From Chiloscyllium plagiosum (taxonomy: Eukaryota), in contig NC_057719.1 of NCBI RefSeq assembly GCF_004010195.1, positions 8,304,224-8,353,123 on the forward strand: a stretch of 48,900 nucleotides of DNA. The letters are read 5' to 3'. This document shows positions 2,225-39,943 of the stretch, piece after piece. The notes beneath the pieces were generated by a model. It was given only the letters and a program-made list of their open reading frames with translations. It did not search any database and was not told the origin of the DNA. The translations under genes were made by a program, and so were the position numbers. Each line of letters starts with the position of its first letter. Within the stretch, counting starts at the first letter, position 1.

Positions 2225-3245
2225 TACACCTGCTCACTATCCAAGGGCTTAAATAGTCTCTCCAGGTGAAGCAGCATTTCAGCTGTACCTCCTCCAATCT
2301 TGGGTTTTGTATTCACTCCACTCAATGTGGCCTACTCTACATTTATGCAAGACTGGGCTGACTGCTTTGTGGAACACCTTGGGACTGTGCACAGTCAGGA
2401 CCCCGACCTTCCCGTAGCTGGTCACTTTAACACAGCGTCCTGCTCACATGCTCACATGTCTGTCCGTGGCATGCTGCAGTGTTCCAGTGAAACACAGCGC
2501 AAACTGGAGGAACAACAGCTCATCTTCACATGGAGCACTTTACAACCTTCTGGGCTCAATATTGAATTCAACACCTTCAGATTTGTGGGCGGCACGGTGG
2601 CATGGTTGTTAGCACTGCTGTCTCACAGTGCCAGAGACCCGGGTTCAATTCCTACCTCGAGCGACCCTCTGTGTGGAGTTTGCATGTTCTCCCCATGTCT
2701 GCGTGGGTTTCCTCCGGGTGCTCTGGCTTTCTCCCACAATCCAAAAAAAAAATGTGTAGGTTAGGTTGATTGGCTACACTAAATTGCCCATAGTGTTAGG
2801 GGAATGGATCTGGGTGGGTCGGTGTGGACTTGTTGGGCCGAAGGGCCTGTTTCCACACTGTAAGTAATCTAAATTAAGTTTAGATTGTGAATATACTTCT
2901 ATTCCTTTTCTTTTAGCTTTGCTTGTTAGACTCTCTGTCACCATATCCTCTGTCCCCTAACCCCCTACCCCAGTGGGACTGTCTGTCCTTTCCAGTCTGG
3001 CAGTTAGACATTCCATTGTTCTGCCATTCTCACATTCCGATCACTTAATCTGAACTATCAACATCCTTTCTACCCCAGCACTCCACACCCCCACTATTGC
3101 TTCGATGCTGTCCCCACCACTTCACGTCAGCCATGATGAAGGGTCATCTAGACTCGAAACGTTAGCTTGCTCTCTCTCCAAGGATGCTGCCTGACCTGCT
3201 GTGGTCTCCAGTACAGACTCCAGCATCTGTTGTAATGTGCTTCTA
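2225..3245 (+). mobile_element. Penelope-like element 3' part (GIY-YIG C-terminus plus pseudo-LTR), itself interrupted by an HE1 SINE at about 2586-2815
   Basis: ORF 2300..2764 contains FVEHL..DLPVAGHFN..CSHAHMSVRGMLQC..RKLEEQQLIF..LQPSGLNIEFN, typical of the PLE endonuclease end; hammerhead-like motif at 3133-3163. Confidence 0.85.
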
Positions 3246-3279
3246 CAGGTTAGGGTGGATTGGCCATTCTAAATCACCC

Positions 3280-3658
3280 TTAATGGGCTACCTTGGGATC
3301 CTCTAACCACATGGCATCAACATTGACTTTATCAGTTTCCCCCCACCTCATCCACCTTATCCCAGATCCAATCCTCCAATTTGGCACTGCCCTCTTGAAC
3401 TGTCCTACCCGTCCATCTTCCTTCCCACCTATCTGCTCCAACCTCCTTTCCGACCTATCACTATCACCTCCCACCTTCATCTAGCTATTGCCTTCCCAAC
3501 TACCTTCCCCAGCGCCACCCCCATCCTCCTATTTATCTCTCAGCCCCCTTCCCCTCTCCACATTCCTGCTGAAGGGCTTATGCCCAAAACATCGATTCTC
3601 CTGCTCCTCAGATGCTGCCATCCCTGCTGTGCTTTTCCAGCGCCACATCTTTTGATCT
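3280..3658 (+). mobile_element. Penelope-like element 3' end/pseudo-LTR (family A)
   Basis: C-rich tract similar to 21640-21960; degenerate hammerhead 3566-3593; 10-bp TSD TAAATCACCC. Confidence 0.8.
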
Positions 3659-4384
3659 TAAATCACCCCACAGTGTCCAGGCTAGGTGGGTTAGCCAAGA
3701 GGAAAATGCAGGGTTACAGGGTGGGGCTGGATGGAATGCTCTTCGGAGGGTTGGTGTAGACTTGAAGGGCTGAACGGCCTGCTTCCGCATGACTGAATTC
3801 TTTGATCCTATGATCTTATATACCTCAATTCGATCTCCTCTCAATCTTCTAAACTCTGGCAAGTACAGGCCTGAAATGTTCAATCCTTCTTAAGATAAAC
3901 CCATCATCTCCGGAATCAATCCAGTGACTCTATACAATGGCTCCCTCAAGTAAAGGGACCAAAACTATATGCAGCGTCCCAGATACAATCTTACCAATGC
4001 CTTGTACAAATGCAACAATGCTTTGCCATTTTCATAGTCCATTCCTTTACTTGCCCTCCTTTGTTTTGCAAACGGAAAGCCCCCACAAATAGCAATGTGA
4101 TAATGACCTGATGAGCTGGTTTGTGTGAAGCTGGCTTTGATTTCACATTTAGATTTTATTGTCATGTGTACAGAAGTACAGGTGTACAGTGAAAACTGTA
4201 TAATGTCATCACACAAAGCACCATCTGATGTATAAAGGTACCCATGTACAACAAACTTTGGTAACTGGAGGGGGAGGTTTGTGAGGACATTTGGTACAAT
4301 TCAGCTCCCCAGGGACTATACCCCAGTGGCATTCAATAGAGACAGGGAGGTGATTCGTGAGGAAGGGATAGGTTTTGTAAGAGA

Positions 4385-4598
4385 CAAAAAAAAACTGCGG
4401 ATACTGGAATCCAAAGTAGACAAGCAGGAGGCTGGAAGACAACAGCAAGCCAGGCAGGAGATGGAGAAGTTAACGTTTTGGGTATTAACCTTTCTTCTGG
4501 ATGGTGGGACTAGATTGGTTTGGGTTATCTGGTCAACATGGACGTGTTCGACCGAAGGGTCTGTTTCCGTGCTGTACATCTATATGACTCTATGACTC
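4385..4598. mobile_element. PLE pseudo-LTR remnant (-, about 4385-4500) adjoining a CR1 tail (+, about 4501-4598)
   Basis: Minus strand reads CAGAAGA-AAGGT..ACCC-AAAACGTT (decayed hammerhead); plus strand ends in GAAGGGTCTGTTTCCGTGCTGTAC and (CTATGACT)n. Confidence 0.65.
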
Positions 4599-4699
4599 CA
4601 TGTCTCACTTGTTTATCGACTGTCTCTACTTGCTGACCCACACTGGGTCCTGGTCCAGCGCTGTTTCAAATGTCGTATTTTTTTCAAATCCTTTGATGG

Positions 4700-5032
4700 C
4701 CCAAGATCGATCCAGCCCTACAATCCTCTGGAATTTCAGCATCCTTTTAATATTGGCTGTTGAGCATCCTGGATTTTCATTCCTCTACTCTGGAGACCTT
4801 ATCTTGACTTTCCTGTGCTCTGGGCTCCGAAACTCCCTCCCTTAAACCTCTCCACCCCTTTACCTTTCTCCCTTGAAGGCACACCTTAACAATTCTCTTT
4901 TTGACTGAACCTTTGGCCACCCATCCCAACATTGTGCGCAGCCCCGTAGTAGATTTTGCTCATTGGATATTCCCGCGAAGTGTGTCTGGGCATGTTTGAT
5001 TTGGTTACCGGCGCTTCACAAATGCAAGTTAT
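4700..5032 (+). mobile_element. Old L2-like LINE 3' end
   Basis: AACTCCCTCCC..AAACCTCTCCAC.. and terminal GGCGCT..ACAAATGCAAGTT resemble L2 tails. Confidence 0.5.
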
Positions 5033-5207
5033 TCACAGATCTGTTTGACCCAAAAAAAGTTGCTCATCGATATTTTGACAAAAAGAATATTTCAGTAGAC
5101 AGAAACTTCTTTTTGTCTCGAAAATGGATTTCCTCGCTGTGCTTGTGTGACAGAATTAAAAGGCTTTGAAGACGCAGAGGCTGAGTGACGCTGAGACAGG
5201 CCAGAGT

Positions 5208-5223
5208 TGTTACCATGGTAACA
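5208..5223. promoter_or_regulatory. Palindromic RFX X-box (TGTTACCATGGTAACA)
   Basis: Perfect 16-bp palindrome matching the RFX consensus GTNRCC-N(0-3)-RGYAAC, in apparently unique, locally CpG-retaining sequence. Confidence 0.6.
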
Positions 5224-5309
5224 GGAACTACGGCTGCATGGACTCAGCTGCCAGAACGTCACGATTCTGGAAGACTGCAAATTGTGGGTCATTGTAGTTA
5301 TGGGGGTTG

Positions 5310-5640
5310 GAGGGCAAAGGCCTAGTGGTATTATTGCTAGACCTTTCATCTGGAAGCTGGACCTGATTTGAGTCCTGTCATGGCACAGAATGGAATTCAA
5401 TTTGATTTAAAAAATAATCTGGAATTAAGAGCCAACTGATGACCATGAAACCCTTGTTGATTGTCATACAAGCTCGTCCGGCTCATTAATGTCCTTCAGG
5501 GAAGGAAATCCGGCCTACGTGTGACTCCAGACCCACAGCAATGTAGGTGACTCTCAACTGCCCTCTGGACAATTATTGATGGACTCTAAATGCTGATTCT
5601 GCCAGACTCCTCACATCCCACGAATGAATTAAAAATAAAA
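5310..5640 (+). mobile_element. Second SINE family sharing its tail with the second LINE family
   Basis: A-box-like GGCCTAGTGG head; core TAATGTCCTTCAGGGAAGGAAAT..GTGACTCCAGACCCACAGCAATG recurs at about 17950-18035 and 24170-24250; tail AAATGCTG..CACATCCCACGAATGAAT-A-rich. Confidence 0.7.
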
Positions 5641-6138
5641 CTCTTAAACGCAGAGGAAATCAGGAGCACAGGGTCAAGATGGGGTGGGTGCATGGGTAGA
5701 GGGCAAGTTAACCCAGTATTTCCTTTTCAATCCTCACTCCTTTTCATCCGAGGCTACTTGCCTGTGCTGTAATTCTTGTCCTGTCCACACCTCTCATGAG
5801 TGCATTACACGATACATTGGATAATGGTTCTCTTCAAGCCAAGCCAATCAGCTTAAACTTGTGTCTCTGATTCTCAAATCTCCCCTTGATTTCTGCTGAG
5901 GTGGAAATAGTTAAAGCTGACCGTGGTATGCTATCAAGACAGGATAGATCATCACAGGAAGTGAAGCATTATCACATGATCTGGCTATTTCACAGGAAGG
6001 TCTTCCTTAAGTTTACCCTTACCTCAGTAGATATTCATCAGCAGTACAAGGCTGAGAATATTAGGGGCTCTAGTGCCTTAAACTTGGAGCCAGGAGGTCT
6101 GGGTTGAAGTGCCACTGGCTCTAGAGATGTGTCACAAT

Positions 6139-6467
6139 TAGCGAGTTTTGAGAAAATTTGTAGCTCAGGTTGAGGTTCTGAATGTAGGTTTGCTCGCTGA
6201 GCTGGAAGGTTCGTTTTCAGAGGTTTTGTCACCATACTAGGTAACATCTTCAGTGAGTCTCCGAATGAAGCACTAGTGATGTAGCCCGCTTTCTATCTAT
6301 ATGTTTGAATTTCCTTGGGTTGGTGATGTCATTTCCTGTAGTGACATAATTTCCGATGGTGATGTCATTTTCTGTTCTTCATCCGGAGGCTCACTGAAGA
6401 TGTTACCTAATATGGTGACAAAATGTCTGAAAATGAACCTTCCAGCTCAGCGAGCAAACCTACATCC
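6139..6467. mobile_element. Non-coding PLE mini-element with inverted pseudo-LTRs (family B)
   Basis: 89-bp inverted arms 6182-6270/6377-6465 (6 mismatches); 12-bp TSD ATGTGTCACAAT at 6127-6138 and 6468-6479; hammerhead-like motif in each arm. Confidence 0.85.
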
Positions 6468-6735
6468 ATGTGTCACAATATCTCTGAAGAGGCTGATTGC
6501 TAAAAATATTACGAGGATCCCTCAAGATTTTTGAAGACCTCTATCAAACCTCCTCATTTCCAGTCTTTAGCTTTTCCAGTCTATCTGTGCAATAGAATCT
6601 CATTCTTCTGTGCCCTCACTAATGCCTTCTCAGCACACATCATAAACAATACTGGCATGGTGGGGACCAAAATTCCTTTTGGTGATGATTTCGAAAGTAC
6701 CATAAAAGCAGATACAACAGCAACATTTAGAATGA

Positions 6736-8188: not shown

Positions 8189-8387
8189 TAACTCAATCTG
8201 TATATGCAAGTCTGAGATTTTATGTCCGTGTGCATTTTAGTTGTTAATAAAGTTCCAGATTGCTGACTCAGTACAAACCTGTGATATATGTTGAAATAAC
8301 TCTTCAGAGGCTGACATCCCATCACCAAACCCCTTTATTCACAAATGCACAGCTTTCGACAAGAGCACTGCCTCTCACTGAGTCAAA

Positions 8388-8470
8388 GTAAAAAATCACA
8401 CAACACCAGGTTATAGTCCGATAGTTTATTGGAAGCACTAACTTTCAGTGTACTGCTCCTTCATCAGGTA
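8388..8470 (-). mobile_element. PLE pseudo-LTR remnant (family C)
   Basis: Minus strand CTGATGA-AGGAGCAGTACACT-GAAAGTTA at 8439-8467; related to 11000-11092. Confidence 0.7.
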
Positions 8471-8518
8471 GCTACGGGACAGGGTCCAACAATTTAGCTT
8501 GGAGAAAGTGAGGACTGC

Positions 8519-10398: not shown

Positions 10399-10623
10399 AA
10401 AAAGTGGGGACTGCAGATGCTGGAGACCAGAGTTGAGAGTGTGGTGCTGGAAAAGCACAGCCGGTCAGGTAGCATCTGGAGGAGCAGGAGAATTGACGTT
10501 TCGGGCATAAGCCCTTCATCAGCCTCATTCTTGATGAAGGGCTTTTGCCTGAAACGTCGATTCTCCTGCTCCTCCAGATGCTTCCTGACCTGCTGTGCTT
10601 TTCCAGCATCACACTCTCGACCC
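10399..10623. mobile_element. Palindromic PLE mini-element (family A) with a hammerhead motif on each strand
   Basis: Inverted arms about 10434-10521/10532-10619; 15-bp TSD TGGAT(A/T)CTCAAGAGG at 10384-10398 and 10624-10638. Confidence 0.85.
10495..10522 (-). ncRNA. Minimal hammerhead ribozyme core (intact consensus)
   Basis: Minus strand CTGATGA-A-GGGC-TTAT-GCCC-GAAA-CGTC; stem I flanks are diverged; activity untested. Confidence 0.7.
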
Positions 10624-10999: not shown

Positions 11000-11092
11000 T
11001 CACTTCATCTGACAAAGGAGCAGCTCTCCGAAAGCTTGTGATTTCAAATGAACTTCTTGGACTATGAAGTGATGTCGTGTGACTTCTGACTT
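11000..11092 (+). mobile_element. PLE pseudo-LTR remnant (family C) with decayed hammerhead
   Basis: CTGACAA-A-GGAG-CAGCT-CTCC-GAAA-GCTT at 11009-11037. Confidence 0.7.
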
Positions 11093-12930: not shown

Positions 12931-13407
12931 AACCTGCTGTTGTCACAGTGTAGAATCACCCAGTGAAAACTGGCACTGTCCCACTGGAGTTCAGGCTTTA
13001 CCAGCCCTTCTTGACAGGGAGAGATTTCTAGGTGGCATTGGTCACTGTCGTGGCAATAGGATTGTGTGTTCTTAATAACCCTTCCCCCTCTGCTGCCAGC
13101 CTCGGTGTCTACACTTCCTCATCGAGAACACTTACTACCTTGCAGCTGCTCAGGCCTTTGTATTGCTCTATCCATGCAACTGCAGTGCCAGCAAAGGCCA
13201 CCACCATTGGTGGTGCTGTTGTGCTGCCAGCTATCCTTATCTGGTCAGTGCCTCCTGGGACGAGCAATCATTCTTAATGAAGGGCTTACGTTCATTGGTC
13301 ACATGGTGGAAGGTGCCTCTCTGTGCCCTGACTCCAAACTTAAAACAGGTCACCTCCTGCTTTTATTCCTGTTGACAGGACCTCAACTGTTCTGGCAATA
13401 TTCTGAT

Positions 13408-14942
13408 CATAGAGTCATAGAGATGTACAGCACGGAAACAGACCCTTCAATCCAACTCGTCCATGCCGACCAGATATCCTAACCTAATCTAGTCCCATTT
13501 GCCAGCACTTGGCCCATATCCCTCTGAACCCTTCCTATTCATATACCCATCCAGATGCCTTTTAAATGTTGGAATTGTACCAGCCTCCACCATTTTCTCT
13601 GGCAGCTCATTCCATACACACACCACCCTCTGCATGAAAACATTGCCCCTTAGGTCCCTTTTAAATCTTTCCCCTCTCACCTTAAACCTATGCTGTCTAG
13701 TTCTGGTCTGCCTCTCTCCAGGGAAAAGACCTTGTCAATTTACCCTATCTGTGCTGCTCATGATTTGATTGACCTCTATGAGGTCACCCCTCAGCCTCCA
13801 ATACTCCAGGGAAAACAGCCCCAGCCTATTCAGCCTCTCCCTGTAGCTCAAATCCTCCAATCCTGGCAACATCCTTGTAAATCTTTTCTGAACCCTTTCA
13901 AGTTTCACAACATCTTTCCGATAGGAAGGAGACCAGAATTGCACACAGCATTCCAACAGTGGCCTAACCAATGTCCTGTACAGCCGCAACATGACCTCCC
14001 AACTCTTGTACTCAATACTCTGACCAATAAAGGAAAGTATAGCAAATGTCTTCTTCACTAGCCTATCTAACTGTGACTCCATTTTTAAGGAGCTATGAAC
14101 CTGCACATCAAGGTTTGTTCAGCAACACTCCCGAGGACCTTACCATTCAGTGTATAAGTCCTGCTAAGACTTGCTTTCCCAAAATGTAGCACCTCACATT
14201 TATCTAAATTAAACTCCATCTGCCACTTCTCAGCCCATTGGCCCATCTGATCAAGATCCCGTTGTACTAAGAGGTAACCTTCTTCGCTGTCCAGTATACC
14301 TCCAATTTTGGTGTCATCTGCAAACTTACTAACTTTCCTTCCTATGTTCACATTCAAATCATTTATACAAATGATGAAAAGCATTGGACCCAGCATCAAT
14401 CCTTGTGGCGCACCACTGGTCACAAGCCTTCAGTTGGAAAGGCAATCCTCCACCACCACCCTCTGTCTTCTACCTTTGAGCCAGTTCTGTGTCTAAATGG
14501 CTAGTTCTCCCTGTATTCCATGAGATCTAACCTTACTAACCGGTCTACCATGAGTAAACTTGTCGAACACCTTATTGAAGTCTATATGGATCATGTCCAC
14601 TGCTCTGCCCTCATCAATCGTCTTTGTTACTTCTTCAAAAAACTCAAGCAAGTTAATGAGATGTGATTTCCCACACACAAAGCCATGTTGGCTATTCCTA
14701 ATCAGTCCTTGCCTTTCCAAATACATGTCCCTGCCCCTCCAACAACTTGCCCACCACTGATGTCAGACCCATCGGTCTATAGTTTCTTGGCTTTTCCTTC
14801 CCACCTTTTTTAAGCAGTGGCACCACATCAGCCAACCTTCAGACTTCCGTCACCTCACCTGTGACTATCGGTGATACAAATATCTCAGCAAGAGACCCAG
14901 CAATCACTTCCCTAGCCTCCCATAGAGCTCTACGGTACACCT
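13408..14942 (-). mobile_element. CR1 (HER1-like) LINE, about 1.5 kb 5'-truncated, frameshifted reverse transcriptase
   Basis: Consecutive ORFs: SQHGFV..NLLEFFEEVT..DFNKVFDK, SGAPQG..LGP..KFADDTKIGG, LVRPLLECCVQFWSP, RVVCVWNELP; tail (CATAGAGT)n. Confidence 0.95.
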
Positions 14943-17767: not shown

Positions 17768-17942
17768 GAGTCAAGAGGAAAAGAACTGGAGGCTGAAAAT
17801 CAGAAACAAAAGCAGGAATTGCTGGAGAAAACTCAGCAGGTCTGGCAGCATCTGTGGAGACAGAAAAACAGAGTTAATGTTTTGGGTCCAGTCACCCTAC
17901 TTCAGAATTCTGAGCTTTTCCACCAGTTTCTGCTTTTGTTTT
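17768..17942. mobile_element. PLE mini-element (family D) with short inverted arms
   Basis: 17-bp TSD TAATATT(G/A)GGAAGGAAA at 17751-17767 and 17943-17959; decayed hammerhead on the minus strand (GGGT..CTGGACCC-AAAACATT). Confidence 0.75.
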
Positions 17943-18039
17943 TAATATTAGGAAGGAAACTGCCTTCCTTACCTGGCCTGGCCTAGATATGACTCCAGAC
18001 CCACAGCGATGCCATTGACTCTTCCCTGCCTTCTGGAGC

Positions 18040-18672: not shown

Positions 18673-20011
18673 TGTGACTCTGTGACTCTCGACAATCAAG
18701 ATGGACGGCAAATGATGGTGTACCCAGCAATGCCCACAATCCTGAGAATAAATTTTTAAAAATTACTTTGACTAACAAGATTGGTGCCACAAACTTGGTG
18801 TCATGGAACAAATTGAAATAATTTGCTCTGGGGAAGGGTCACTTGATCCAAAACGATAACCGTGGTTTCTCACCACAGATGCTAAGATCTTCCAGCAGTT
18901 TTTTTTATTGTTTTTGAAATAATTCAGTTCACAGCTATATCACCTTCACATGATGAGGCACTACAAGGTCAATGACGGACTTGGATACTATTTGCATCGC
19001 TTGAGGGACCTCCAAGACAGAATTAAAACTGGTTTGTATTTTGTGTTTGTGCCTATCCCTCCAAGGATGACATTAAATAGTATTGAGGAGGATTATTTAA
19101 GATACCATCCGAATAATTACTGGTTTAAAGCTGCATTCTTTCCCCCTTTGCTATCAAGCTGCTTGTCAATTTCAAGTTACATTTCACATATTCAGAATCA
19201 ACCAACCAGCGCCCTCACCCTAATCAGGCTGAGTAGACTGCAACATGCAGCAACTACATGGTCAGAGGTGACTCGAATAATTCAGAAGGATATGACCTGA
19301 CTTTTCCAAAGGTGCGGGGATGTGGACCGTGCTCTGGAACCACCCCCCCTCCCCCCACCGCCTCAGAATCTCAGCACGTGTAGAGCATTCAGACTCAAGG
19401 ACAATCAAGGAACCAATCAGCACACAGGGAGGCCATTGGGCCTGTTGTCTCTGTACTAGCTCTAGTGAAGCACTATCCCACTCTTATTGTTTTCCAAAAC
19501 TCTACAATTTGTTTTTTTTTAACAACAAAATTGATCAAATTCCCTTCCGAAAGTTATTGACTTTGCTACATTGCAGATCGGAGATGCTTACTGTCTCAAA
19601 TAAATTCCCCTCATCTCCCTCTACAGTTCATCCTGTGATTTTCTTAATTCTGTCTCTTCTTTCCTGATGGGATAAGGGCATCACTGGAAGGGAAACGTTT
19701 GTAGGCCGTCCCTAATTACCCCAGAATTTACCACCTTTCCAGGGCAACTAGGGACAGGCAACAAATGCTGACCCAACCAGTGATTTCCATGTCCCACAGT
19801 AAATAAAATTTTTAAAAAACTGAGTGGTGTTATTGGGATGTTTAAGAGGGTTTTTATAGGAACTGGCTACATGGTTGTGGATCTGGAGTCAAATGTAGGC
19901 CAGGCCAGTTACAAACAAAAAGTCTCCTCAGCGAGCCAGTGGCTTCACTGTCACTATAACTGAGTCTAACTCCAGATTTGTTAATTGAATGGGATTGATG
20001 GGATTTGAAAG

Positions 20012-20140
20012 TGGAGAAAGTGAGGATCACAGGTGTGGGAGATCAGAGTCGAAGAGTGTGGTGCTGGAAAAGCACAGCCGGTCAGGCAGCATCCGAGGAG
20101 CAGGAGAACCGATGTTTCGGGCCTAAGCCCTTCATCAGGA
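20012..20140 (-). mobile_element. Solo PLE pseudo-LTR (family A) with near-intact hammerhead
   Basis: Minus strand CTGATGA-A-GGGC-TTAG-GCCC-GAAA-CATC at 20111-20138. Confidence 0.8.
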
Positions 20141-20247
20141 TTTTGACGCCATGTCCCCCAGAGCATTAGCCTGTGTCTTGGGGGCTGCCTCTTCTCACAC
20201 CGTTGAAAATAATTTCTTCCTCCTTAGACCATCAAAACCGCACACCA

Positions 20248-20999: not shown

Positions 21000-22010
21000 G
21001 CCTTGAACTCCTCCCTTCCAAAGCAACAAGGATAGAACTCCACCCCAGTCCTCACCTCCCATCCCACTAAACTCCAGATATAATGCATCATCCTCTGCCA
21101 TTTCTGCCACCTACAGTCAGACCCCACCACTAGAGATATATTTCCCTCCCCACTACCATCAGCATCCTGCAGAGACCACTCCCTCTGCAATTCCCTCGTG
21201 AGGTCCACACCCTCTACCAACCTACCCTCCACTGCCAGCACATTCCCTTGCCACCGCAAGAGGTGTAAACCCTGCACCCACACCTCCCCCCTCACCTCCA
21301 TCCGAGGCCCCAAAGGATCCTTCCACATCCAGCAGAGATTTTCCTGCGCCTCCACACACGTCATCTACCATATCCATTGCTCCTGATGTGGTCTCCTCTA
21401 CATGGGGGACACAGAACGCCAATTCGCAGAACATTTCAGGGAACATCCTTGGGACACGCGCGCTAAACAACACCACCACCCTCTGGCCGAACACTTCAAC
21501 TTTTCCCTTCCACTTCGCCAAGGACATGCAAGTCCTGGGCCTCCTCCACCACCAAATCCAAACCATCTGATGCCTGAAGGAAGAACGCTTCATTTTCTGA
21601 CTTCGGTCTCTCCAACCTCACAGCATCAATATCGATTTCACCAGTTTCCTCATCTCCCCTCCCCTCCGCTCACCTCATCCCAGATCCAACCCTCCAACTC
21701 GGCAGTGTCCTCTTGAACTGTCCTACCTGTCCATCTTCCTTCTCACCTATCCGCTCCACCTTCCCTTCCGATCTATCACCTTCATCCACTTCCATCTACC
21801 TATCACATTCCCAATTACTTTCCCTCCTGCCCCACCCCCCTCCTATTTGTCTCTCAGCCCCCTTCTCCCTGCCCCACCCCATCGTTGATGAAGGGCTTAT
21901 GCCCGAAACGTCGACTCTCCTACTCATTGGATGCTACCTGACCTGCTGTGCTTTTCCAGCACTACACTTTTCGACGCTGTTCTCCAGCATCTGCAGTCCT
22001 CACTTTCTCC
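21000..22010 (+). mobile_element. Penelope-like element 3' region: Cys/His linker, GIY-YIG endonuclease pseudogene and pseudo-LTR
   Basis: FPCHRKRCKPCTH..FSCASTHVIYHIHCS*CGLLYMGDTERQFAEHFREH..PLAEHFN with a stop and frameshifts; hammerhead TTGATGA-A-GGGC-TTAT-GCCC-GAAA-CGTC at 21885-21912. Confidence 0.92.
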
Positions 22011-22510: not shown

Positions 22511-23390
22511 CCTTTGTGCACATTAGGTGGATTGGCCATGCTAAATTGCCCATAGTGTCCAGGGATGTGTAGGCTAGGTAGGTTAGCCATGGGATATGTA
22601 GGGTTAGGGTATGGAGCTTGGATGGGCTGCATGGCCTACTTCCACACTGTCAGAATTCTATTCTATGCCTCTAATCTGTGAATGAACACTGCTGCTCCTA
22701 ACCCCTGTGCTTGTATTGTTTTGCTTTATTGGGATGCCCAAGGAAAGGTTGAGGACCTAAGGGCCAGGTCATCGCTGACCCTGAAAAATGTAGCCGAGAA
22801 GATCACGCTGATAGCGATTGAGCAAGTGTAGACCTGAGGAGCCGCAGGTGGCTGGAGACTGAACATACAGAGAGACTTGAGAAGCTTGGATTATTCTCTT
22901 TAATACAGTAAAGGAGAAGAGGAGATCAAGCAGAAATATTTGAAATCCGCATTTATTCACCTTTGATAGTGTAAATGAGAACAAACTGTTTCCGGTGATG
23001 GGGTGATGGAAAGGCAGATAATCAGAGGTCATGGACTTGCGATAATTGGCAAAACAAGTCGAGGTATTACGGGGAAACATAGGAAGGCATTTTTCTACCA
23101 TTAGTAGAGGGCTCAATAATAAAGGGCATAGAGGTACAAGGCTAAGAGGACCATTGACAAGATTTCTTTTCAATCAAAGGATGGTGTGAGTTTGAAACTC
23201 ATTGCCTGAAAGGGCAATTCAGTCAGAAACTCTTGTAACATTTCAGCAGCATTTAAACATTCACTTGCATTGTTGTAGCCTCCGGGGATACGAAACAACA
23301 ACTGAGAAGTAGACCTGACGTGGTCAGATCTTTGTTGTTCAGCACAGACACATTGGGCTGAATGGTCCCCTTAAATTCATCCTGTCGTTC

Positions 23391-23510
23391 CCGATGAAGG
23401 GCTTTTGACGTCAATTCACCTGCTCCTCGGATGCTGCCTGACCTGCTGTGCTTTTCCAGCACCACACTCTCAACTCTGATCTCCAACATTTGCAGTCCAC
23501 TTTTTCCCAG
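23391..23510 (+). mobile_element. Solo PLE pseudo-LTR (family A), hammerhead internally deleted
   Basis: CCGATGAAGGGCTTTTG-[deletion]-ACGTC followed by the family A body. Confidence 0.75.
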
Positions 23511-24850: not shown

Positions 24851-25612
24851 AGAGTCATAGAGTCCTACAGCACAGAGACAGGCTCTGTGGCCCAAACTAG
24901 TCCATGCCAACCAAAATGTCCATCCATTTAAACCCCATTTCCCTGCACTTGGCCCATATCCTTCTAATCCTTTCCTGCCCATGCACTTGTCCAAATGCCT
25001 TTTAAATGTTGTTAATGTACCTGCCTCAACCACTTCCACTGGCAGCTCATTCCATATGCATACCACCCTCTGTGTAAATAAAGTTGCCCCTCAGGTTCCC
25101 TTTTATTCTTTCCCCTCTCACCTTAAACTGATGCCCTCTGGTCCTCAATTCCCCAATCCTGGGAAAAAGACTGAGTGCATTCACCCTATCCATGCCTCTC
25201 ATGATCTTATGCACCTCCATAAGGTGTCCCCTTAGCCTCCTACCCTCTAAAGAAAAAAGTCCTAGTTTATCCAACCTCTCCCTGTAACTCACACCATTGA
25301 GTCCTGGCAACATCCTTGTAAATTTCTTCTGCACTCTTTCCAGTTTAATAATATCCTTCCTATAGCAAGGTGACCAAAACAGATCGCAATACTCCAAGTG
25401 CGGCCTCACCAACATTCTGTATAACTGCAACATAACTTCCCAACTTCTATACTCAATGCCCTGACTGATGAAGGACAGTGTGCCAAAAGCCTTCCTCACT
25501 GCCCTGTCTACCTGGGACTCCACTTTCAGAGAACCATGCACTTGAACTCCAAGATCCCTCGGTTCCACTACACTGCTTAAAGCCCTACCATTCACCATGA
25601 AACTCCTACCTT
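24851..25612 (-). mobile_element. CR1 LINE 3' fragment
   Basis: ORF 25047..25598 (183 aa) RDLGVQVH..LYRMLVRPHLEYC..FSLEGRRLRG..RTRGHQFKVRG. Confidence 0.95.
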
Positions 25613-25709
25613 GCTGAGCTAGCCACTCAGTTCAAGGGCAAACAAGGATGGATAACAGTTACTAGCCTTTCCAATAAGTGACAAATTGTATAAAGTAAAA
25701 TAAAGTATC

Positions 25710-26195: not shown

Positions 26196-26684
26196 TTTGT
26201 ACTATTGTGCTGAGTTTAATTTTCTAGAATTCTACAGAAACTCCTGGTTATAATATGCTGAAATGGAAATTGTGGAAGAAACTTGACAGGATCTGTCGAG
26301 AGAGAAAGCAAAGTCAACATTTCGGGTCCAGAGCCGTCCTTCAGAACTGATTATGATGTCCTCTTCAACTGATGTCAAAATGCTAGGTTTATTGTGAAAG
26401 GTCTTGTTCCCCTTGGTGTAAGGTAAACTCACCATAGTCCCATATCTCTCATTCGAGACAAATGGCTAGGGGTGAGTTGAACTTGAGGGTCATCGCACTT
26501 CAGGCATGGGGTGAGGTTGAGAAGGAGGGTCCTTCATGGTAACCTCAGCTACTTAACCCAATCTGTTAGCACCACCCTCCAGCCGTCCAACTAACTGGGC
26601 TAACCAATCCTGTCCTTTCTGCAACCCCTGATGTTATCCTTCAGTGAGTCAATCGGGGAAGGTAGAACTTAACACAGGTCGATT

Positions 26685-27168
26685 AAAAATCATGAGGGGT
26701 ATGGATAGGGTAAATAGACAAGGTCTTTTCCCTGGAGAGGGGGAGACCAGAACTAGAGGGCATAGGTTTAGAGTGAGAGGGGAAAGATTGAAAAGGGTCC
26801 TAAGGGGCAATTCTTTCACTCAGTGGGTGGTGTGTGTATGTGGAATGAGCTGCCAGTGGAAGTGGTGGAGGCTGGTACAATTACAATATTTTAAAAAGGC
26901 ATTTGGATGAGTACATGAATAGGAAAGGTTTGAAGGGATATGGAGAAATTGAGGATTGCAGATGCTGGAGATCAGAGTTGAGATTGTGGGGTTGGAAAAG
27001 CACAGGAGGAGCAGGATGCTGCCTAACCAGCTGTGCTTTTCCAGCATCACACTCTCCGGTGGGATATGGGCAAAGTGCTGACAAATGGGACGAGAGTAGA
27101 TTGGGATATCTGGTCAGCATGGACGAGTTGGGCTGAAGGGTCTGTTTCCGTGCTGTACATCTCTATGA
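26685..27168 (+). mobile_element. CR1 3' end containing a palindromic PLE remnant (26944-27060)
   Basis: KIMRGMDRVNRQGLFP motif; insert flanked by 9-bp TSD GGGATATGG at 26935-26943 and 27061-27069. Confidence 0.85.
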
Positions 27169-29189: not shown

Positions 29190-29748
29190 AAGATGTTGCC
29201 GGCTATGGAAGGTTTGAGTTATAAAGAAATGTTGGAGAGGCTGGGACTATTTTTACTGGAGCTTTGGAGGTTAAAAGGCGACCTTCTAGAAGTTTATAAA
29301 ATAATGAGGGGTATAGATAATAGTGAGTTTTGAGAAGATTTGGAGCTAGGTTGAGGTTCTGGTTTTAGGTTTGGTCGCTGAGCTGCAAGGTTCGATTCCA
29401 GCTCAGCGAGCAAACCTACATCCAGGATATAGATAGGGTTAATGGTAGTTGTCTTTTCCCTACGATGGAGGATTTCAAGACAAAGAGGCACATTTTAAGG
29501 TGAGAGGACAGAGATTTAAAAAAAGACATAAGAGGCCATTTTTTTTACCCAGAGGGTAGTATGGCCGTGGAATGAACTTCTTGAAGAAGTTTTGGATGTG
29601 AGTACAAATACAACATTTCAAAGACATTTGGATGGATACATGAATAAGAAAGGTTTGGAGGGATATGGGCTAGGAGCAGGCAGGTGGGACTAGTTTAGTT
29701 TGGGATTGGACTGGTTGCCCGAAGGGTCTGTTTCCATACCGTATGACT
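29190..29748 (+). mobile_element. CR1 3' end containing a PLE family B inverted remnant (about 29320-29427)
   Basis: Short inverted arms TAGGTTTGGTCGCTGAGCTG / CAGCTCAGCGAGCAAACCTA; TSD core TATAGATA at 29312-29319 and 29428-29435. Confidence 0.8.
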
Positions 29749-31137: not shown

Positions 31138-31580
31138 TACTGCAAGCTGGAAGAATAGCATCTCATCTTCCGCTTTGGGGGACCCTGCAGCCTTCTGGAC
31201 TCAATATCAAACTGAACAGCTTTAACGCTTGAGCCCTCCCATGTCTTTACCCCAATCCCCACACACTAGGCCATGTTATCACACAGTCTGTAATTACACA
31301 CAACCCATTGGTAGTGACTAACAATCCCGAATAATAACTATTCACCCTGCTAGCAAGATTTCTATCCATTCCTTTGTTCAACTGTTCTCTCTGTTTGGTC
31401 TCTATCCCCACCTGTCATTTATTCCTTATCCCTTTCCCCACTCAGTCTTCTGCACATGAACTGACATTTTCCTCGCAACCATCAGTTTTGAGGAAGAGTC
31501 ACTGGACCCGAAACTCTGAATTTTCTCCACAGATGCTGCCAGACCTGCTGAGCTTTTCCAACAATTTCTGCTTTTATTCT
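31138..31580 (+). mobile_element. Penelope-like element 3' end (family D), preceded by a DeuSINE-like remnant (about 31015-31135)
   Basis: CKLEE*HLIFR..TLQPSGLNIK endonuclease end; TTGAGGA-A-GAGTC-ACTG-GACCC-GAAAC at 31488-31514. Confidence 0.8.
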
Positions 31581-31882: not shown

Positions 31883-32672
31883 TAGAGTCATAGAGTCGCA
31901 GAGATATACACCAGGAAACAGACCCTTCAGTCCAACTTGTCCATGCTGTCCAGATATCCTAAATTAATCTAGTCCCATTTGCCAGAACATGGCCTATAGC
32001 CCTCTAAACCCTTCCTATTCATATACCCGTCCAGATGCCTTTTAAGTGTAATTGTACCAGCCTCCACCACTTTCTCTAACAGCTCATTCCATACACACAC
32101 CACCCTCTGCATGAAAAAGTTGCCTCTTAGGTCCCTTTTAAATTTATTCCCTCTCACCCTAAACCTATGCCCTCCAGTTCTGGACTCCCCCACCCCAGGG
32201 AAAATACCTTGTCTATTTACCCTATATATGGCCCTCATGATTTTATAAACCTCTATAAAGTCACCCCTCAGCCTCCGATGCTCCAGAGAAAACAGCCCTA
32301 ACCTATTCAACCTCTCCCTATCGCTCAACCCTCCAACTCTTGCAACATCCTTGTAAATCTTTTCTGAACCCATTCAAATTTCACAACATGCTTCCTGTAG
32401 GAGGGAGGCCAGAATTGCACACAATATTCCAAAGTGGCCTAACCAATATTCTGTACAGCCGCAACATGATCTCCCAACTCCTCTACTCAATACTTTGACC
32501 AATAAAGGAAAGCATACCAAACGCCTTCTTCACTATCCTATCTATCTGCAACTCCACTTTCAAGGAGCTATGAACCTGCACTCCAAGGTCTCTTTGTTCT
32601 GCAACATTCCACAGAATCTTGCCACCAAGCTTATAAGTCCTGACCTGATTTGCCTTTCCAAAATGTAGCATC
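31883..32672 (-). mobile_element. CR1 LINE 3' fragment
   Basis: ORFs 31969..32373 and 32483..32716 with CR1 C-terminal motifs. Confidence 0.95.
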
Positions 32673-33619
32673 TCTTTGAAGTGTTTCACCTGAATGGAGA
32701 CAGTAAACCTGCACACTTTAACAACATGTGTTCTGTGAGAGGGATGTTGCAGTGCTGGTTGGTAAACTTCCTGAAAGGCAGTAACCAGCAGGAATTATTG
32801 AACACTGGAAAAAGCCAGAACAAGCCTGACTTTTAAAAATGCAGCCATCCTTATATTTATCCGTCCCTGTTTCTTAGACCCAAGACTCTCTCAGTCGGCA
32901 AAGAACCACCCACAAAGTATATTGCTGTGGGACGTTGGGATATGGTTCGCGGTGCTATATCAATGCAAATTCTGCTCTCAGTTTGAGCTACCTGATAAAA
33001 CAGTGGGATTTCTGAAACCATTAGACAATTGTTTTGCTATCTCAATCCTTCCGCAGCACCAAGTGTTAACAAATACAGCCAAAATGGCACATCAAGTAAA
33101 TGTGGTTCAGGGGACTTTTGTTGTCAATAGTTTCAAATTGAATTGAAAAGCAATAGAGTATCTGAAGAGGCTCTCTGAATAAACCTGTTTGCACCACATA
33201 TTCACACACTAAATGGCTGCTGGATTAAAGACTCGGAGAATAGCATTTCATATTAACATGCTACGTGAGAAAACGATATCTTTGCTGCATTTTAATGCAT
33301 GTATATAGCAGAATGGATGTTTCATTATCACTGAGTACTGTTATTATTGAAATGATGGGAGTAAAATAGTGTGGTACCGTGGATGCCAGTGTGTTGATAA
33401 CAGAAAGCAAATATGAACATTGTGCTGTGGTAGACCAGCTGAAGAGCTCAGATAAGGAGAGAAGAATAAGATTAATTCATTATTTAACAACTAGTGTTTT
33501 GTAAGAGATGGAGGTTTTCAGGAGGGAAATGTCAAGTCAAAATGAGAATTTACATTTTACTTTGTATTCAGGGGAAAGGGACAGTAAGGCGAATGGATTC
33601 ACATAATGTGTCCAGTTTG

Positions 33620-33790: not shown

Positions 33791-33809
33791 AAAGTGGAAT
33801 CTGCAGGAA

Positions 33810-34345: not shown

Positions 34346-34662
34346 GGTTAAATTTTCAAATTGGCAATGGAGGTGGCAAGTCTGGAATATTCCACTGCCA
34401 GCTGACACGGTTCAGTCTCAGTGCCGTTTCCACGATGGGAATGGTAAAGGACCTCTGCTCACAATTGGATGGTGGCCAGTTCAGGTCATTAAAGCCCCTC
34501 TGCTATTTTGTCTCAGTATTCATGTTCCTCATAAACCTTCTCTCAACTTTGTCTCACGATGTATCTCGATATTCAGCTGCACTTTACACTCCTCTGTTGC
34601 TGTCTTTTAAGGTTGGAGGGGCTCGTAAAATCACAGAACCACAGAATTGTTCTGAAGGAGAA

Positions 34663-34849
34663 GGAGAAAGTGAGGGCTGCAGATGCTGGAGATCAGAGCT
34701 GAAAATGTGTTGCTGGAAAAGCGCAGCAGGTCAGGCAGCATCCAAGGAACAGGAGAAGCGACGTTTCGGGCATAAACATTCCTGAAGAAGGGCTTATGCC
34801 CGAAACGTCGATTCTCCTGTTCCTTGGATGCTGCCTGACCTGCTGCGCT
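34663..34849. mobile_element. Young palindromic PLE mini-element (family A)
   Basis: 56-bp inverted arms 34720-34775/34794-34849 with 1 mismatch and CpGs retained; inserted in a CR1 tail that continues to about 35500. Confidence 0.9.
34776..34813 (+). ncRNA. Minimal type I hammerhead ribozyme (best preserved copy; core 34782-34809)
   Basis: ATTC-CTGAAGA-A-GGGC-TTAT-GCCC-GAAA-CGTC-GATT: full CUGANGA/GAAA core, 4-bp stem II, palindromic ACGT stem III, GUC cleavage triplet, short stem I; activity untested. Confidence 0.8.
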
Positions 34850-35599: not shown

Positions 35600-35795
35600 T
35601 TGTGGACATAGTTTTGTTCGCTGAGCTGAATGGTTCATTTTCAGACCTTTCGTCACCGTACTAGGTAACATCTTCAATGAGCTTCTGGTCAATGCCTGGA
35701 GGCTCACTGACGATGTTGGGATTAGAGAGGTGCTGGAAAAGCACAGCCGGTCAGGCAGCATCCGAGGAGCAGGAAAATCGACATTTCAGGCAAAA
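35600..35795 (-). mobile_element. Adjacent PLE pseudo-LTR remnants (families B and A)
   Basis: Minus strand TTGAAGA-T-GTTACC-TAGTAC-GGTGAC-GAAA-GGTC; family A body at about 35730-35795. Confidence 0.7.
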
Positions 35796-35828
35796 GGGGC
35801 AGAGGAGATGACCTTGGGGTTGGAGTGA

Positions 35829-37830
35829 GATGGTGATGGTGATGTCTGGGACATTGTCTGTATCATTCCATGATATGACCCTGTCAGGCTGTTGCTTGAC
35901 TAGTCTGTAAGACAGCCCTCCCATTTCAGAACTAGCTCCCAAATAATAGTAAGGAGGACTTCGCAGGATCGACAGGAGTCATATCATGGAATGATGCAGA
36001 CAATGTCCCAGACATCACCATCACCATCCCTGGCTGCGGTCTAGTCCCACCGGCAGGACAGACCTGGCAGAGATGGCGGCACAGTGGTACGCAGTCAGGA
36101 GGGAGTTGCCCTGGGAGTCCTCAGCATTGGTGCTGGACCCATGAAGTCTCATGGCTTCAGGTTAAACATGTCAGTCTTCAGCTAATTTGATTCACTCTAT
36201 GGAATACCAAGAAATGGTTGGAGGCACTGGATACTGCAAAGGCTACAGGCCCTGACAACATTCCAGCAATGTGCTCCAGAACTTGCAGTACACTTCCAAC
36301 ACTGGCATCTTCCTGTCAACGTGGAAAATTTCCCAGGTGTATCCTGTACACAAAAAGGAGGATAAATCCAACCCGACCAATTATAACCTTATCAGTCTGC
36401 TCTCCATCATCAGTAAAGTGACAGAAGGGGTCCTCAACTGTGCTAACAAGCTGAACTGCTCAGCAATTTCCTGCTCAGTGATGCCCAGTTTGGGTTCCAC
36501 CAGGGCTACTCAGCTCCTGACCTCATTACAGCCTCGGTTCAAACATGGACAGAAGAGCAGAATTCCAGAGGGGAGGGGAGAGTGATAGCCCTTGATATCA
36601 AGACCGCATTCTCCTGAGTTTGGCATCAAGGAGCCTGAGCAAAACTGGAATCAATGGGTATTGGAGGGCAAACTCACTAGTGTTTGGAGTCATACGTGGC
36701 ACATAGGAAGATGGATGTGGTTGTTGGAGGTCAGTCATCTCAGCTCTATGGTAGTGTCCTAAGGCAAAGTAGGCATGATTGCACAATGTTTAGCAGATGT
36801 TCCTCAGATACTGGGCTGACAAGTGACAAATAACATTTGTGCCACACAAATGCCAGGCTATGACTATCTACAATATGAGACAATCTAACCAGGGCCCCTT
36901 CACATTTAGAGTCATAGAGATGTACAGACCCTTCGGTCCAACTCGTCCATGCCAACCAGATATCCCAACCCAATCCAGTCCCACCTGCCAGTACCCGGCC
37001 CATATCCCTCCAAACCCTTCCTATTCATATACCCATCCAAATGCCTTTTAAATGTTGTAATTGTACCCACCTCTGGCAGTTCATTCCATACACGTACCAC
37101 CCTCTGTGTGAAAAATTGCCCCTTAGGTCTCTTTTATATCTTTCCCAGAGGACAGACTTTGTCTATTTATCCTATCCATGCCCCTCATGATTTTATAAAC
37201 TTCTATAAGGTCACCCCTCAACCCACGGTTTCTCCAGGGAAAATAGCCCCAGCCTATTCAGCCTCTCCCTATAGCTCAAATCCTCCAACCCTGGCAACAT
37301 ACTTGTAAATCTTTTCTGAATCCATTCAAGTTTCACAACATCCTTCCAATAGGAAGGAGACCAGAATTGCACACAATGTTCCAACAGTGGCCTAATGGCA
37401 TTACTATCAATGAATCCCCCCACCATCAAAATCCTGGGAAACTCAACTGGACTTGCCACGTACATGGAGTAATCCACTCTTGCCTGGGTGGGTGCAGCTC
37501 CACCAACACTCAAGAAGCTTGACACCATCCAAGACCAAGCAGCCCGCTTGATTGGCACCACATCTATGAACATCCACTCCATCCACCAATGATGCTCAGT
37601 AGCACATTGTACGAGCTACAAGATGCACTGCAGAGATGCACTGCAGGACACCAAAGATCCTTCGACAGTACCTTCAAAACCCATGACCACTTCCATCTAG
37701 AAGGACAAGGGCAGCAAATACATGGGAACACCACCTCGTGAGAGTTCCCATCCAAGCCACTCACCATCCTGGCTTGAAAATATATCGGCGTTCCTTCACT
37801 GTCACTGGATCAAAGTCCTGCAACAGGCAT
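35829..37830 (+). mobile_element. Second LINE family (CR1/L2 clade): deleted endonuclease and RT remnants with inverted 5' segment, interrupted by a CR1 (-) at about 36908-37395
   Basis: LVKQQPD..DNVPDITITI (APE region), LDTAKATGPDNIPA and WKISQVYPVHKKEDKSNPTNYNLISLLSIISKV (pre-RT). Confidence 0.85.
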
Positions 37831-38400
37831 TGGTTGTCCTGAAGGGCGGATCTTAAGTTGTGACATCAATTAACCCTTTCGGGTACTAACTGCCTTGTTA
37901 CAGATGATAACTGACTTCAGGAAGACAAGACAGACCGTTCAGTTAGACAGACAGGTGGTAGGTTCGAGGATGGATAGAGTGTCACAAATTCAGCTACCCA
38001 AAACAAACAAGCGCTGAAAGTCAGGCAGCTTTATCATCTTCCATGCCTCAATGTTAATTATGGGTAATTAAAAAAGAAATTTATTGAGTCAGATTTTTAA
38101 TCAGTAAGGGGAAAAAGAAAGTATAGTTGAGGATAATCAGATCAACCATTGAATGGCAGAGCTGGCTTGATGGGCTGAATGGCCTATATCTTATGCTCTT
38201 GGACCATTGGGTAGTGCCCTATTTCTGTGGTGTGACTAGTCAGTGGCTTCGCCAGCTGTAGCCTGTGTGTTAAGCCCTTGACCTGTCCGACCCTGGGTTG
38301 ACCTGAACAAACCCCAACCTAAAACTTGGAAGTCTCCAAGAGCCAATCTAACCCCTGACCTGGAAGGTGTCAGATTCCGTAAGTATTGGTGGAGTTATAC

Positions 38401-38740
38401 AATCCCTACAGTGTAGGAAACAGTTCCTGTGGCCCAACAAATCCACACCAACCCTCTCAAGAGTAACCCACCCAGACCCATTCCTGTTATCCTATATTTA
38501 CCCGTGACAAATGCACTTAACCTACAGATCCCTGAACACTATGGGCAATTTAGCTTGGCCAATTCACCCGACCTGCGCAAGTTTGGATTGTGTAAGGAAA
38601 CCAGAGCACCCAGAGGAAACCTACACAGACACAGGGAGAACATGCAAACTCCACACAGACAGTCGCCCGAGGCTCGAATCAAACCTGGGTCCCTGGCTCT
38701 GTGAGGCAGCAGTGCTAACCACTGAGCCACTGTGCCGCCG
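38401..38740 (-). mobile_element. HE1 V-SINE, full length
   Basis: Head, V-domain and tail on the minus strand. Confidence 0.9.
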
Positions 38741-39269
38741 AGTGAGGGGAGGCAAAATGGTGCAGTTTGAGAGCAGCAGGGGGCACACAGGATGCTTCAG
38801 AGCCCCGTTCTTGGTGCCACCCTCAGGGAGACAGCTCCTGCTCTCAGCGGATTCTCTGGGAGTTTGTACCCGATTCTGTCAGCCTCAGCCTTGGATTCCA
38901 CTTGGACAGTTAACTTTTGTTGTTTCCAAAGAGTGAATGATGTGGCTTTTCGAAGCTGATGAGTAGAAAAGAGCAGCTCCCACATCACCCACCAATAGAT
39001 TCTGTGGGGAAACAGCCCATGGCTCATTGTGCATGACATTGCTGTTTATTATCCAGAGGATTTGCTGTGACTGCATTGCAGGTTCTGCCTGGGTTCGGCT
39101 CACTTGCTGTCTCTGGCAGAGGGAAAACAGCTCAATCCAGGCAGTGTAAATTACTGTAGCACTACAGAGACGTCAAATCATTGGTTTGATAATAAAGATG
39201 CATCTTAATAGTGAATAAACTGTCAACTCTCACTCAGCTGACTGTAACAAAACATCCCCAGTGAAGGTC

Positions 39270-39275
39270 CCTCTC

Positions 39276-39306
<31 letters not shown>

Positions 39307-39308
39307 CC
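39270..39308. repeat. (CT)n microsatellite
   Basis: Direct reading. Confidence 0.9.
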
Positions 39309-39814
39309 TCACCCTCTCACATTTCTGCCCTTGGTTTCCTCACCTTATTCACGGTCCCTTGGGGCATCAATTGCACAAGTGAAATTGACCTTCACACAGA
39401 CTCTAATGCCAACCAGCTTAAACACTCCAACTCTTGACCCCTGGATTAAAGAATCTATTTTTATATGTTGTTTATCCCTAAGGGTTGCTCATCCCTAATT
39501 GCCCTTGAACTGAGAGGCTCACTTGGCTGTTTCAGAGGGCAGTTTAGTGTGAACCGCATTGCTGTCAGTCTGGAATCATGTGGCGACCAGGCAGGTTGGA
39601 ATGATGGATTTTAATGAACTAAATGGACTATTACAGCAATAGATTGCCATTTCACATTCACCGTTTCAACTCCAGAATTATAAATGGAAGTTTAAAATTT
39701 AGCCAGCTGTGGGAGTTGGACCCATGCCCTGACATTATCAGTCTATCATCATTTCTCTGCACATGCTCCTTCCTTCAGACTGCATTCGTTCTGATCAACA
39801 TTGGTAAGAAGCTC

Positions 39815-39943
39815 GGAGAAAGTGAGGACTGCAGATGCTGGCAATCAGAGTTGAAATGTGCGGTGCTGGAAAAGCACAGCAGGTCAGGCAGCATCCAAGG
39901 AGCAGGAGAGTTGACGTTTCAGGTATAAGCCCTTCATCAGGAA
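39815..39943 (-). mobile_element. Solo PLE pseudo-LTR (family A) with intact hammerhead core nucleotides
   Basis: Minus strand CTGATGA-A-GGGC-TTAT-ACCT-GAAA-CGTC at 39913-39940 (stem II weakened). Confidence 0.8.

What the first reader, a model, noticed from the sequence alone, without database searches (positions are those of the whole stretch)
3133..39940. About 20 minimal hammerhead ribozyme motifs in 5-6 families with covarying stem II
Seen: the pattern CTGAnGA-(A/T)-stem-loop-GAAA-short palindrome recurs with different but always complementary stem II sequences. These are GGGC/GCCC (3566, 10495-, 10531, 20111-, 21885, 34782, 39913-), GTTACC/GGTGAC (6220-, 6394, 35644-), GGAG/CTCC (11009, decayed at 8439-), G(G/A)GTC/GACCC (31488, 17875-, 18828, 26320-) and GGGTC/GACTC (3133). 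Three copies lie just 3' of GIY-YIG endonuclease remnants. Established: Penelope-like elements carry minimal type I hammerheads in their pseudo-LTRs, and an extra nucleotide between A9 and stem II is known in natural hammerheads. Inference: several independent PLE lineages in this shark kept the ribozyme fold, at roughly one motif per 2-3 kb.
Basis: partly seen in the sequence, partly recalled or inferred. Interest (0 to 1): 0.75.

Follow-up and report, generated by a model that had tools for sequence, protein, structure and literature searches.

The report
Penelope hammerhead fossils, signs of cutting
These motifs are mostly decayed end pieces of several Penelope-type jumping genes that carry a known tiny self-cutting RNA (hammerhead) motif; elsewhere in the same genome eight insertions join U6 RNA exactly at the predicted cut, which likely records that these weak ribozymes do cut in the animal.

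Summary
All 17 listed sites exist; 5 keep CUGANGA/GAAA/UH and only 34782 is intact throughout. A strict descriptor gives 6 window hits against 0.08 in shuffles. The motifs are pseudo-LTR stubs of endonuclease-bearing Penelope-like elements: about one per 3.5 kb in a 965-kb genome sample, linked to GIY-YIG ends. They fall into three lineage groups, not 5-6 independent ones. Helices I and II covary across families. This is the minimal hammerhead of Cervera and de la Pena 2014. Beyond that: copy 5' ends step up sharply just before the motif, about 30 nt behind a TATA-like box, so the ribozyme is likely the front of the transcript. Plain truncations show no clear cut-site excess once microhomology junctions are removed. 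However, 9 of 9 U6-Penelope junctions (8 insertions, two lineages) sit exactly at the predicted cut with five Ts: indirect evidence of in vivo cleavage. This scan noted the motifs (770 notes) and the U6 chimeras before, on other DNA of this and other genomes.

The parts
34778..34813 (+). Family A (Neptune-type) minimal hammerhead, the only fully intact window copy; right arm of an inverted pair (left arm 34662-34775, minus strand, starts inside helix II)
20107..20142 (-). Family A motif, core and helices intact, CpG-decayed palindrome (CA); copy starts 2 nt before the core
10491..10562 (.). Divergent inverted pair of family A stubs (C3 at 10522 minus, core intact but helix I 5' strand lost; C3 at 10531 plus, C3 changed to U)
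39909..39944 (-). Family A motif, core intact, helix II 3 of 4 pairs
21881..21916 (+). Family A motif (C3 to U) at the end of a 5'-truncated element
21048..21687 (+). Broken RT-thumb/linker/GIY-YIG remnant of the element that ends in the 21885 motif
   Evidence: tblastn with P0001, E 2e-61
3562..3597 (+). Family A motif, decayed (CUGCUGA, AAAA); TATA-like TATTTAT at 3530-3536
23387..23422 (+).
3129..3167 (+). Family E motif (C3 to A), helix II 5 of 5 pairs; related to A and D
2212..2578 (+). GIY-YIG remnant upstream of the 3133 motif, followed by a SINE-like repeat at about 2578-2880
   Evidence: tblastn E 1e-20; repeats D2, D6
6216..6431 (.). Divergent inverted pair of family B (Penelope/Poseidon-type) stubs, C3 at 6253 minus and 6394 plus; both GAAA to AAAA
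35640..35681 (-). Family B motif, C3 to U, helix II 6 of 6 pairs
8435..8471 (-). Family C (second Neptune-type lineage) motif, core intact, helix II 3 of 5 pairs
11005..11041 (+). Family C motif, core mutated (CUGACAA)
31484..31521 (+). Family D motif, decayed; 351 nt of upstream element including the endonuclease C-terminal tip (31143-31487)
17872..17909 (-). Family D motif, decayed, with short inverted arm at 17910-17950
18824..18861 (+). Family D motif, decayed
26311..26348 (-). Family D motif, decayed with a one-base deletion
4470..4504 (-).
48406..48444 (+).

Best explanation
The motifs are mostly decayed, 5'-truncated pseudo-LTR ends of endonuclease-bearing Penelope-like retrotransposons (three lineage groups), each carrying the known minimal type I hammerhead, which in the active parent elements likely forms the front of the transcript and likely cuts in vivo at a low rate. 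Shown: the motifs, their families, their link to RT/GIY-YIG frames, stem covariation across families, a sharp step in copy 5' ends just before the motif, and U6 joined at the predicted cut in 9 of 9 junctions. Inferred: transcription starts 4 nt (A, D), about 8 nt (C) or about 22 nt (B) before C3 behind a TATA-like box; reverse transcription starts about 90 or 125 nt behind C3 and often runs off that RNA front, so short stubs retain the whole ribozyme; a minority of RNAs self-cleave (as dimers through the ACGU/AGCU palindrome or with the element's protein), leaving a 5'-OH that an RtcB-type ligase can join to U6. The genomic stubs themselves are passive fossils.
For: Descriptor enrichment. RT and GIY-YIG Pfam hits in long family A copies, GIY-YIG frames upstream of B, C, D, 17 of 295 copies with an endonuclease remnant within 900 nt upstream. 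Architecture matches the published consensus NNN CUGANGAH G..C GAAAN palindrome NUH NNN. Covariation: 79.6% of cells paired against 62.1% shuffled, 7 of 8 pairs with changes on both sides, all slid registers 24-47%. 5' ends: family A 51 in 10 nt from -8 against 20 in the 90 nt upstream (n 174, p 3e-35), family C 22 against 4 (n 65); the best-supported loose end upstream of the motif in three runs is position -4; TATA-like boxes 28-32 nt before these positions in A, B, C, D. 3' ends cluster at about 90 and 125, the published 30-40 nt tail. U6 junctions: 7 of 7 pattern hits for the A group, free to fall over about 29 registers, lie at the cut, 1 of 1 for C, plus L358; all have five Ts and unrelated flanks, as in RtcB-made U6/L1 chimeras. 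Variation inside family A falls on N7, loop II, CpG sites and downstream subfamily positions.
Against: No excess of plain truncations at the cut: 0 of 174 sample alignments start at 28-29 (2 to 5 are compatible on inspection); for subfamily A1 the raw excess (135 against 29-62) falls to 1.65-fold (95% 0.74-3.18) for host-flanked copies. No pile-up of RNA molecule starts or ends in the one informative raw RNA run. No U6 junction for family B and none tested separately for D. Helix I is only 2-4 bp, with a U-U mismatch in the two largest A subfamilies, and the hammerhead fold is the predicted minimum only for A1. The extra G expected from cap copying was not enriched (5 of 16). The B start site rests on 3 of 17 copies and was not resolved. 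The profile was filtered on core similarity, which biases it towards core conservation.
Confidence: 0.8

Rival explanations
1. Same elements, but the hammerheads are catalytically silent relics or protein-binding folds; the U6 junctions arise by reverse-transcriptase template switching or by a host nuclease at a structure-exposed bond.
For: Published minimal hammerheads cleave poorly, and cleavage was not needed for insertion in vitro; no cut-site footprint among ordinary stubs; very short helix I.
Against: 9 of 9 U6 junctions at the exact predicted bond in two lineages with different sequence at the cut, all with five Ts and no microhomology in family C; catalytic positions fixed across families while stems covary.
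Confidence: 0.13
2. The short copies are a non-autonomous hammerhead element (retrozyme or SINE-like) that spreads on its own RNA rather than run-off stubs of the full element.
For: Most copies are 90-130 nt, start at one position and are very numerous; tandem retrozymes derived from PLE pseudo-LTRs are described, including in one chondrichthyan.
Against: The same sequence continues into GIY-YIG and RT frames in long copies of A, B, C and D; the stubs lack the upstream TATA-like box; 103 of 174 A copies have the inverted partner typical of PLE insertions; no tandem array of the motif in the window.
Confidence: 0.05
3. Individual genomic copies have been domesticated as host ribozymes.
For: One copy (34782) is intact; reads from embedded copies occur in an RNA run.
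Against: 16 of 17 listed copies carry damaging changes, mainly CpG decay; the intact one is simply identical to a young subfamily.
Confidence: 0.02

Closest known systems
Minimal hammerheads (min-HHR) in pseudo-LTRs of metazoan PLEs, Cervera and de la Pena 2014 (PMC4209133; parts 1-2 of 4 and part 2 of 3 of supplement 2 read; supplement 1 not searchable)
   Same: Core, extra nucleotide after A9, G10.1-C11.1, palindromic 15.2/16.2, short helix I, many families per genome, mostly single truncated copies, divergent inverted pairs.
   Different: No shark or Callorhinchus term found in the supplement files searched; their counts were thousands per genome (4,000 coelacanth, 9,000 Xenopus) against a rough 280,000 descriptor-passing copies extrapolated here; family A helix II is only 4 bp and helix I 2-4 bp; they had no in vivo evidence.
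Poseidon element of Anolis (PAc), Frangieh et al. 2024 (PMC11167929; parts 1-2 of 4 read)
   Same: Pseudo-LTR hammerhead, two reverse-transcription start sites that give the tail; here 3' ends cluster at about 90 and 125.
   Different: They found no RNA reads ending at the cut and cleavage only with protein; the U6 junctions here are a genomic record they did not report in the parts read.
Neptune and Penelope/Poseidon EN+ PLE clades, Craig et al. 2021 (PMC8557442; passages read)
   Same: C-terminal GIY-YIG, CX2-5CxxC linker in A, C, D, none in B; inverted 5'-truncated partner; 30-40 bp tail.
   Different: Clade labels here rest on the linker motif only; no tree was built. They call HHR function in EN+ PLEs unclear.
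U6/LINE-1 chimeras made by RtcB, Moldovan et al. 2019 (PMC6789731; passages read)
   Same: U6 ending in five Ts joined to a retroelement RNA that needs a 5'-OH.
   Different: L1 junctions are variably truncated and the nuclease is undefined; here the junction is fixed at the ribozyme's predicted bond.
Animal non-LTR retrozymes (bioRxiv 10.64898/2026.07.22.740005; part 1 of 5 and passages read)
   Same: Type I hammerheads related to PLE pseudo-LTRs, reported in one chondrichthyan.
   Different: Retrozymes are tandem arrays; these are dispersed stubs and inverted pairs linked to ORFs.

Membership tests
PLE minimal type I hammerhead | CUGANGA, GAAA and UH core | tested here: met
   Young copies of A, B, C, D; only 5 of 17 listed window copies still meet it
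PLE minimal type I hammerhead | Extra nucleotide after A9 and G10.1-C11.1 pair | tested here: met
   A in groups A, C, D, E; U in B
PLE minimal type I hammerhead | Palindromic 15.2/16.2 without helix III | tested here: met
   CG in A, B, D, E; GC in C
PLE minimal type I hammerhead | Helices I and II with compensatory change across families | tested here: met
   7 of 8 pairs change on both sides, 13 real copies, two C rows misaligned by one column against the structure; relatedness not corrected, no R-scape
PLE minimal type I hammerhead | Located in the pseudo-LTR 3' of an RT/GIY-YIG frame | tested here: met
PLE minimal type I hammerhead | Self-cleavage (dimer or protein-assisted) | not testable with these tools
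   Indirect only: U6 junctions at the predicted bond
EN+ Penelope-like element | Full element with two direct pseudo-LTRs around one intact ORF | tested here: inconclusive
   535-aa and 527-aa RT+EN frames with flanking pseudo-LTR sequence; no gap-free full-length copy found, the longest frames ran into assembly gaps
Neptune clade (A group, C) | CX2-5CxxC linker between RT and EN | tested here: met
Penelope/Poseidon clade (B) | No linker zinc finger; RT phylogeny | tested here: inconclusive
   Linker absent in two long copies; RT not recovered, no tree
Rfam hammerhead families | Covariance-model hit | tested here: not met
   No hammerhead family at E <= 10
Non-LTR retrozyme | Tandem array with a hammerhead in each unit | tested here: not met
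   None in the window; not surveyed genome-wide

The most novel reading that the evidence does not exclude
In two Penelope clades of this genome the minimal hammerhead is the first 30-55 nt of a TATA-driven transcript, and it does cut in the germ line: U6 copies ligated to the 5'-OH product at the exact bond are a fossil record of in vivo cleavage by ribozymes for which the papers read give no in vivo evidence. Cleaved RNA is a minor template, so the cut may decap or limit the element's RNA rather than being required for copying.
Probability: 0.65. Interest if true: 0.65.

Novelty: new member of a known kind. Interest (0 to 1): 0.42.

Why it matters
The motif class is published, so the census alone is ordinary. 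What adds value is mechanistic: whether PLE hammerheads cut in vivo and where they sit in the transcript are open questions in the papers read. This genome offers hundreds of thousands of copies, a mapped likely start site and U6 chimeras that pin the cut to one bond, which makes a direct test simple. The negative result also matters: apparent cut-site pile-ups among stubs can come from microhomology at inverted junctions.

Tried and rejected
Rfam scan: no hammerhead; the miRNA-family hits are the inverted pairs and the weak U6 hit at 37250-37358 (E 8.8) lies in LINE sequence. Pfam on nine window frames: no GIY-YIG hit, only a LINE RT; tblastn with a genomic PLE protein was needed. A search for an intact element led to frames filled with assembly gaps. 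Cut-site footprint among stubs: A2 counts 1068 (cut), 597 and 767 (neighbours) reduce to about 500, 240 and 360-410 after removing point changes in 30, 15 and 15 inspected loci, with microhomology ambiguity; A1 135 against 58, 29, 50, 62, mostly inverted junctions in helix I or palindrome register; rejected as evidence. A special role for helix I in fold-back: it is the commonest register (18 of the first 100 listed of 1945 junctions, counted by eye) but the GAA and AA registers give 12 and 9, so general microhomology explains it. Extra G at the start: 5 of 16, no support. RNA runs: no RNA holder listed; X20 laid nothing; X19 reads are mostly embedded copies and show no start or end pile-up. 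U6 chimera search for family B: none. One row (D 491) was a coordinate slip and the F row was off by one base; both were left out of the counts. Literature: hammerhead ribozyme + shark + Penelope gave one paper where shark is only the head shape; U6 snRNA + chimer + Penelope + hammerhead gave none; one search gave no other report in its listing.
Full report
Observation. A direct scan and a look at each coordinate show that all 17 listed sites hold a hammerhead-like motif. A homology search adds a few more, 22 copies reaching the core region. Most are damaged. Five of the 17 keep CUGANGA, GAAA and UH; 11 keep every helix II pair; only 34782 is intact throughout and it is identical over 40 nt to a young copy elsewhere. 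The signal is far above chance: 6 descriptor hits against a mean of 0.08 in 100 shuffles of the window, and 77 against 4 (reversed) and 0 (shuffled) in 965 kb taken as 100 evenly placed 10-kb stretches of the genome. Rfam has no model that hits them.

What they belong to. The window lies in a 3.56-Gb genome. Single 29-letter patterns occur 952 times (one family A variant) and 15,504 times (family C). In the sample 273 copies reach the core, one per 3.5 kb; the window is somewhat denser. Extrapolation gives roughly a million homologous copies and about 280,000 that pass the descriptor; this is rough. Long copies tie each group to a Penelope-like ORF. Family A has RT and GIY-YIG hits with a C-X4-C-X2-C linker; C and D have that linker too and B lacks it. 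By the criteria in Craig et al. (passages) A, C and D are Neptune-type and B Penelope/Poseidon-type; no tree was built. In the window, endonuclease remnants lie before 21885 and 3133, and only the C-terminal tip before 3566 and 31488.

Is the fold real? Across 13 real copies the stems change sequence but stay paired: 79.6% of cells against 62.1% in shuffles, 7 of 8 pairs with changes on both sides, and 24-47% when the register is slid. Relatedness is not corrected for, and two rows were misaligned by one column against the structure. Within family A the variable positions are N7, loop II, CpG sites and subfamily positions behind the cut (filtered on core similarity). For the youngest subfamily the predicted minimum-energy fold is the hammerhead itself; for others it is not, and none folds much better than shuffles except 20138. 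The layout matches the published minimal hammerhead consensus, including the extra nucleotide and the palindrome.

Where the ribozyme sits. Earlier scan notes suggested that copies start just before the motif; I tested this. In family A, 51 of 174 sample copies start in the 10 nt from -8, against 20 in the 90 nt upstream; in C, 22 of 65 against 4. In reads and contigs from three runs the best-supported loose end upstream of the motif is position -4. Long copies of A, B, C and D all have a TATA-like box 28-32 nt before the inferred start; in B it lies further from the ribozyme and 3 of 17 copies start at -22. The simplest reading is that the RNA starts there and that reverse transcription often runs off its front. 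This is inferred from DNA; the one informative RNA run shows no start pile-up, and the extra G expected from a cap was not enriched (5 of 16). The 3' ends cluster near 90 and 125, the tail that Frangieh et al. trace to two internal start sites of reverse transcription. 103 of 174 A copies have an inverted partner.

Does it cut? Ordinary stubs give no clear answer. The raw excess of copies starting at the predicted cut (A1: 135 against 29-62 at four neighbouring positions) comes mostly from inverted junctions where the two arms share letters; among host-flanked copies the ratio is 1.65 (0.74-3.18), and A2 is similar. Junction registers follow microhomology in general. A second lead from earlier notes did hold. 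A pattern that left the junction free over about 29 registers found 7 matches, all at that base; family C gave 1, also at its own predicted cut; family B gave none. The 9 junctions come from 8 insertions with unrelated flanks and several subfamilies, and all have exactly five Ts. Mature U6 ends in five Us with a cyclic phosphate and is ligated by RtcB to RNAs with a 5'-OH, the end a hammerhead leaves (established chemistry). In family A a CpG-decay reading of the last Ts is possible but would require a three-U tail in every case; family C has no such ambiguity. This is indirect evidence that the ribozymes cut in the germ line, at a low rate.

Comparison and novelty. The motifs are members of the class described in 2014; I found no shark entry in the supplement files searched (one file could not be searched) and no paper combining these terms with sharks or with U6 chimeras, while tandem retrozymes are reported for one chondrichthyan. 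The papers read state that in vivo evidence is lacking or that function is unclear. The finding as written is therefore a new instance of a known kind, made mostly of fossils. The start-site step and the U6 junctions raise its value, and both had been noted by this scan on other DNA before I checked them.

Verdict. Observation partly confirmed, interpretation partly supported, new member of a known kind, interest 0.42.

Noticed in passing
L358, L382-L389 (G000 C1, C3, C7, C10, C11, C31, C52879): U6 copies joined to family A or C pseudo-LTRs at the predicted cut, several with an inverted pseudo-LTR arm upstream; the C31 locus has the chimera in both arms.
   Followed up: yes
L356, L363, L364, L368, L373, L376-L381: About 11 of the 30 U6 copies inspected are followed by the 5' end of one SINE-like repeat; L359 is followed by a tRNA-like sequence.
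   Followed up: no
L357, L360, L365, L371: U6 copies in a tandem-like cluster with a shared downstream repeat unit.
   Followed up: no
Family A subfamilies, e.g. L096:8161-8200 and L099:5910-5949: The youngest subfamily has a perfect 4-bp helix I; the two larger ones carry a U-U mismatch, a natural pair for a cleavage-rate comparison.
   Followed up: partly
Genome-wide: 1945 short inverted junctions whose arm ends at or near the inferred start and resumes by 2-4 letters of microhomology.
   Followed up: partly
window 29321-29425 and 26941-27058: Inverted B and A stubs that start behind the ribozyme and fold back on themselves.
   Followed up: no
window 13400-14430, 24860-25630, 31900-32800, 36900-37450, 41575-42530: Many 3' ends of a CR1-like LINE, with a 315-nt tandem duplication at 41575-42189 (the CR1 label is recalled).
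   Followed up: no
window 48548-48900: Long degenerate (CA)n microsatellite.
   Followed up: no
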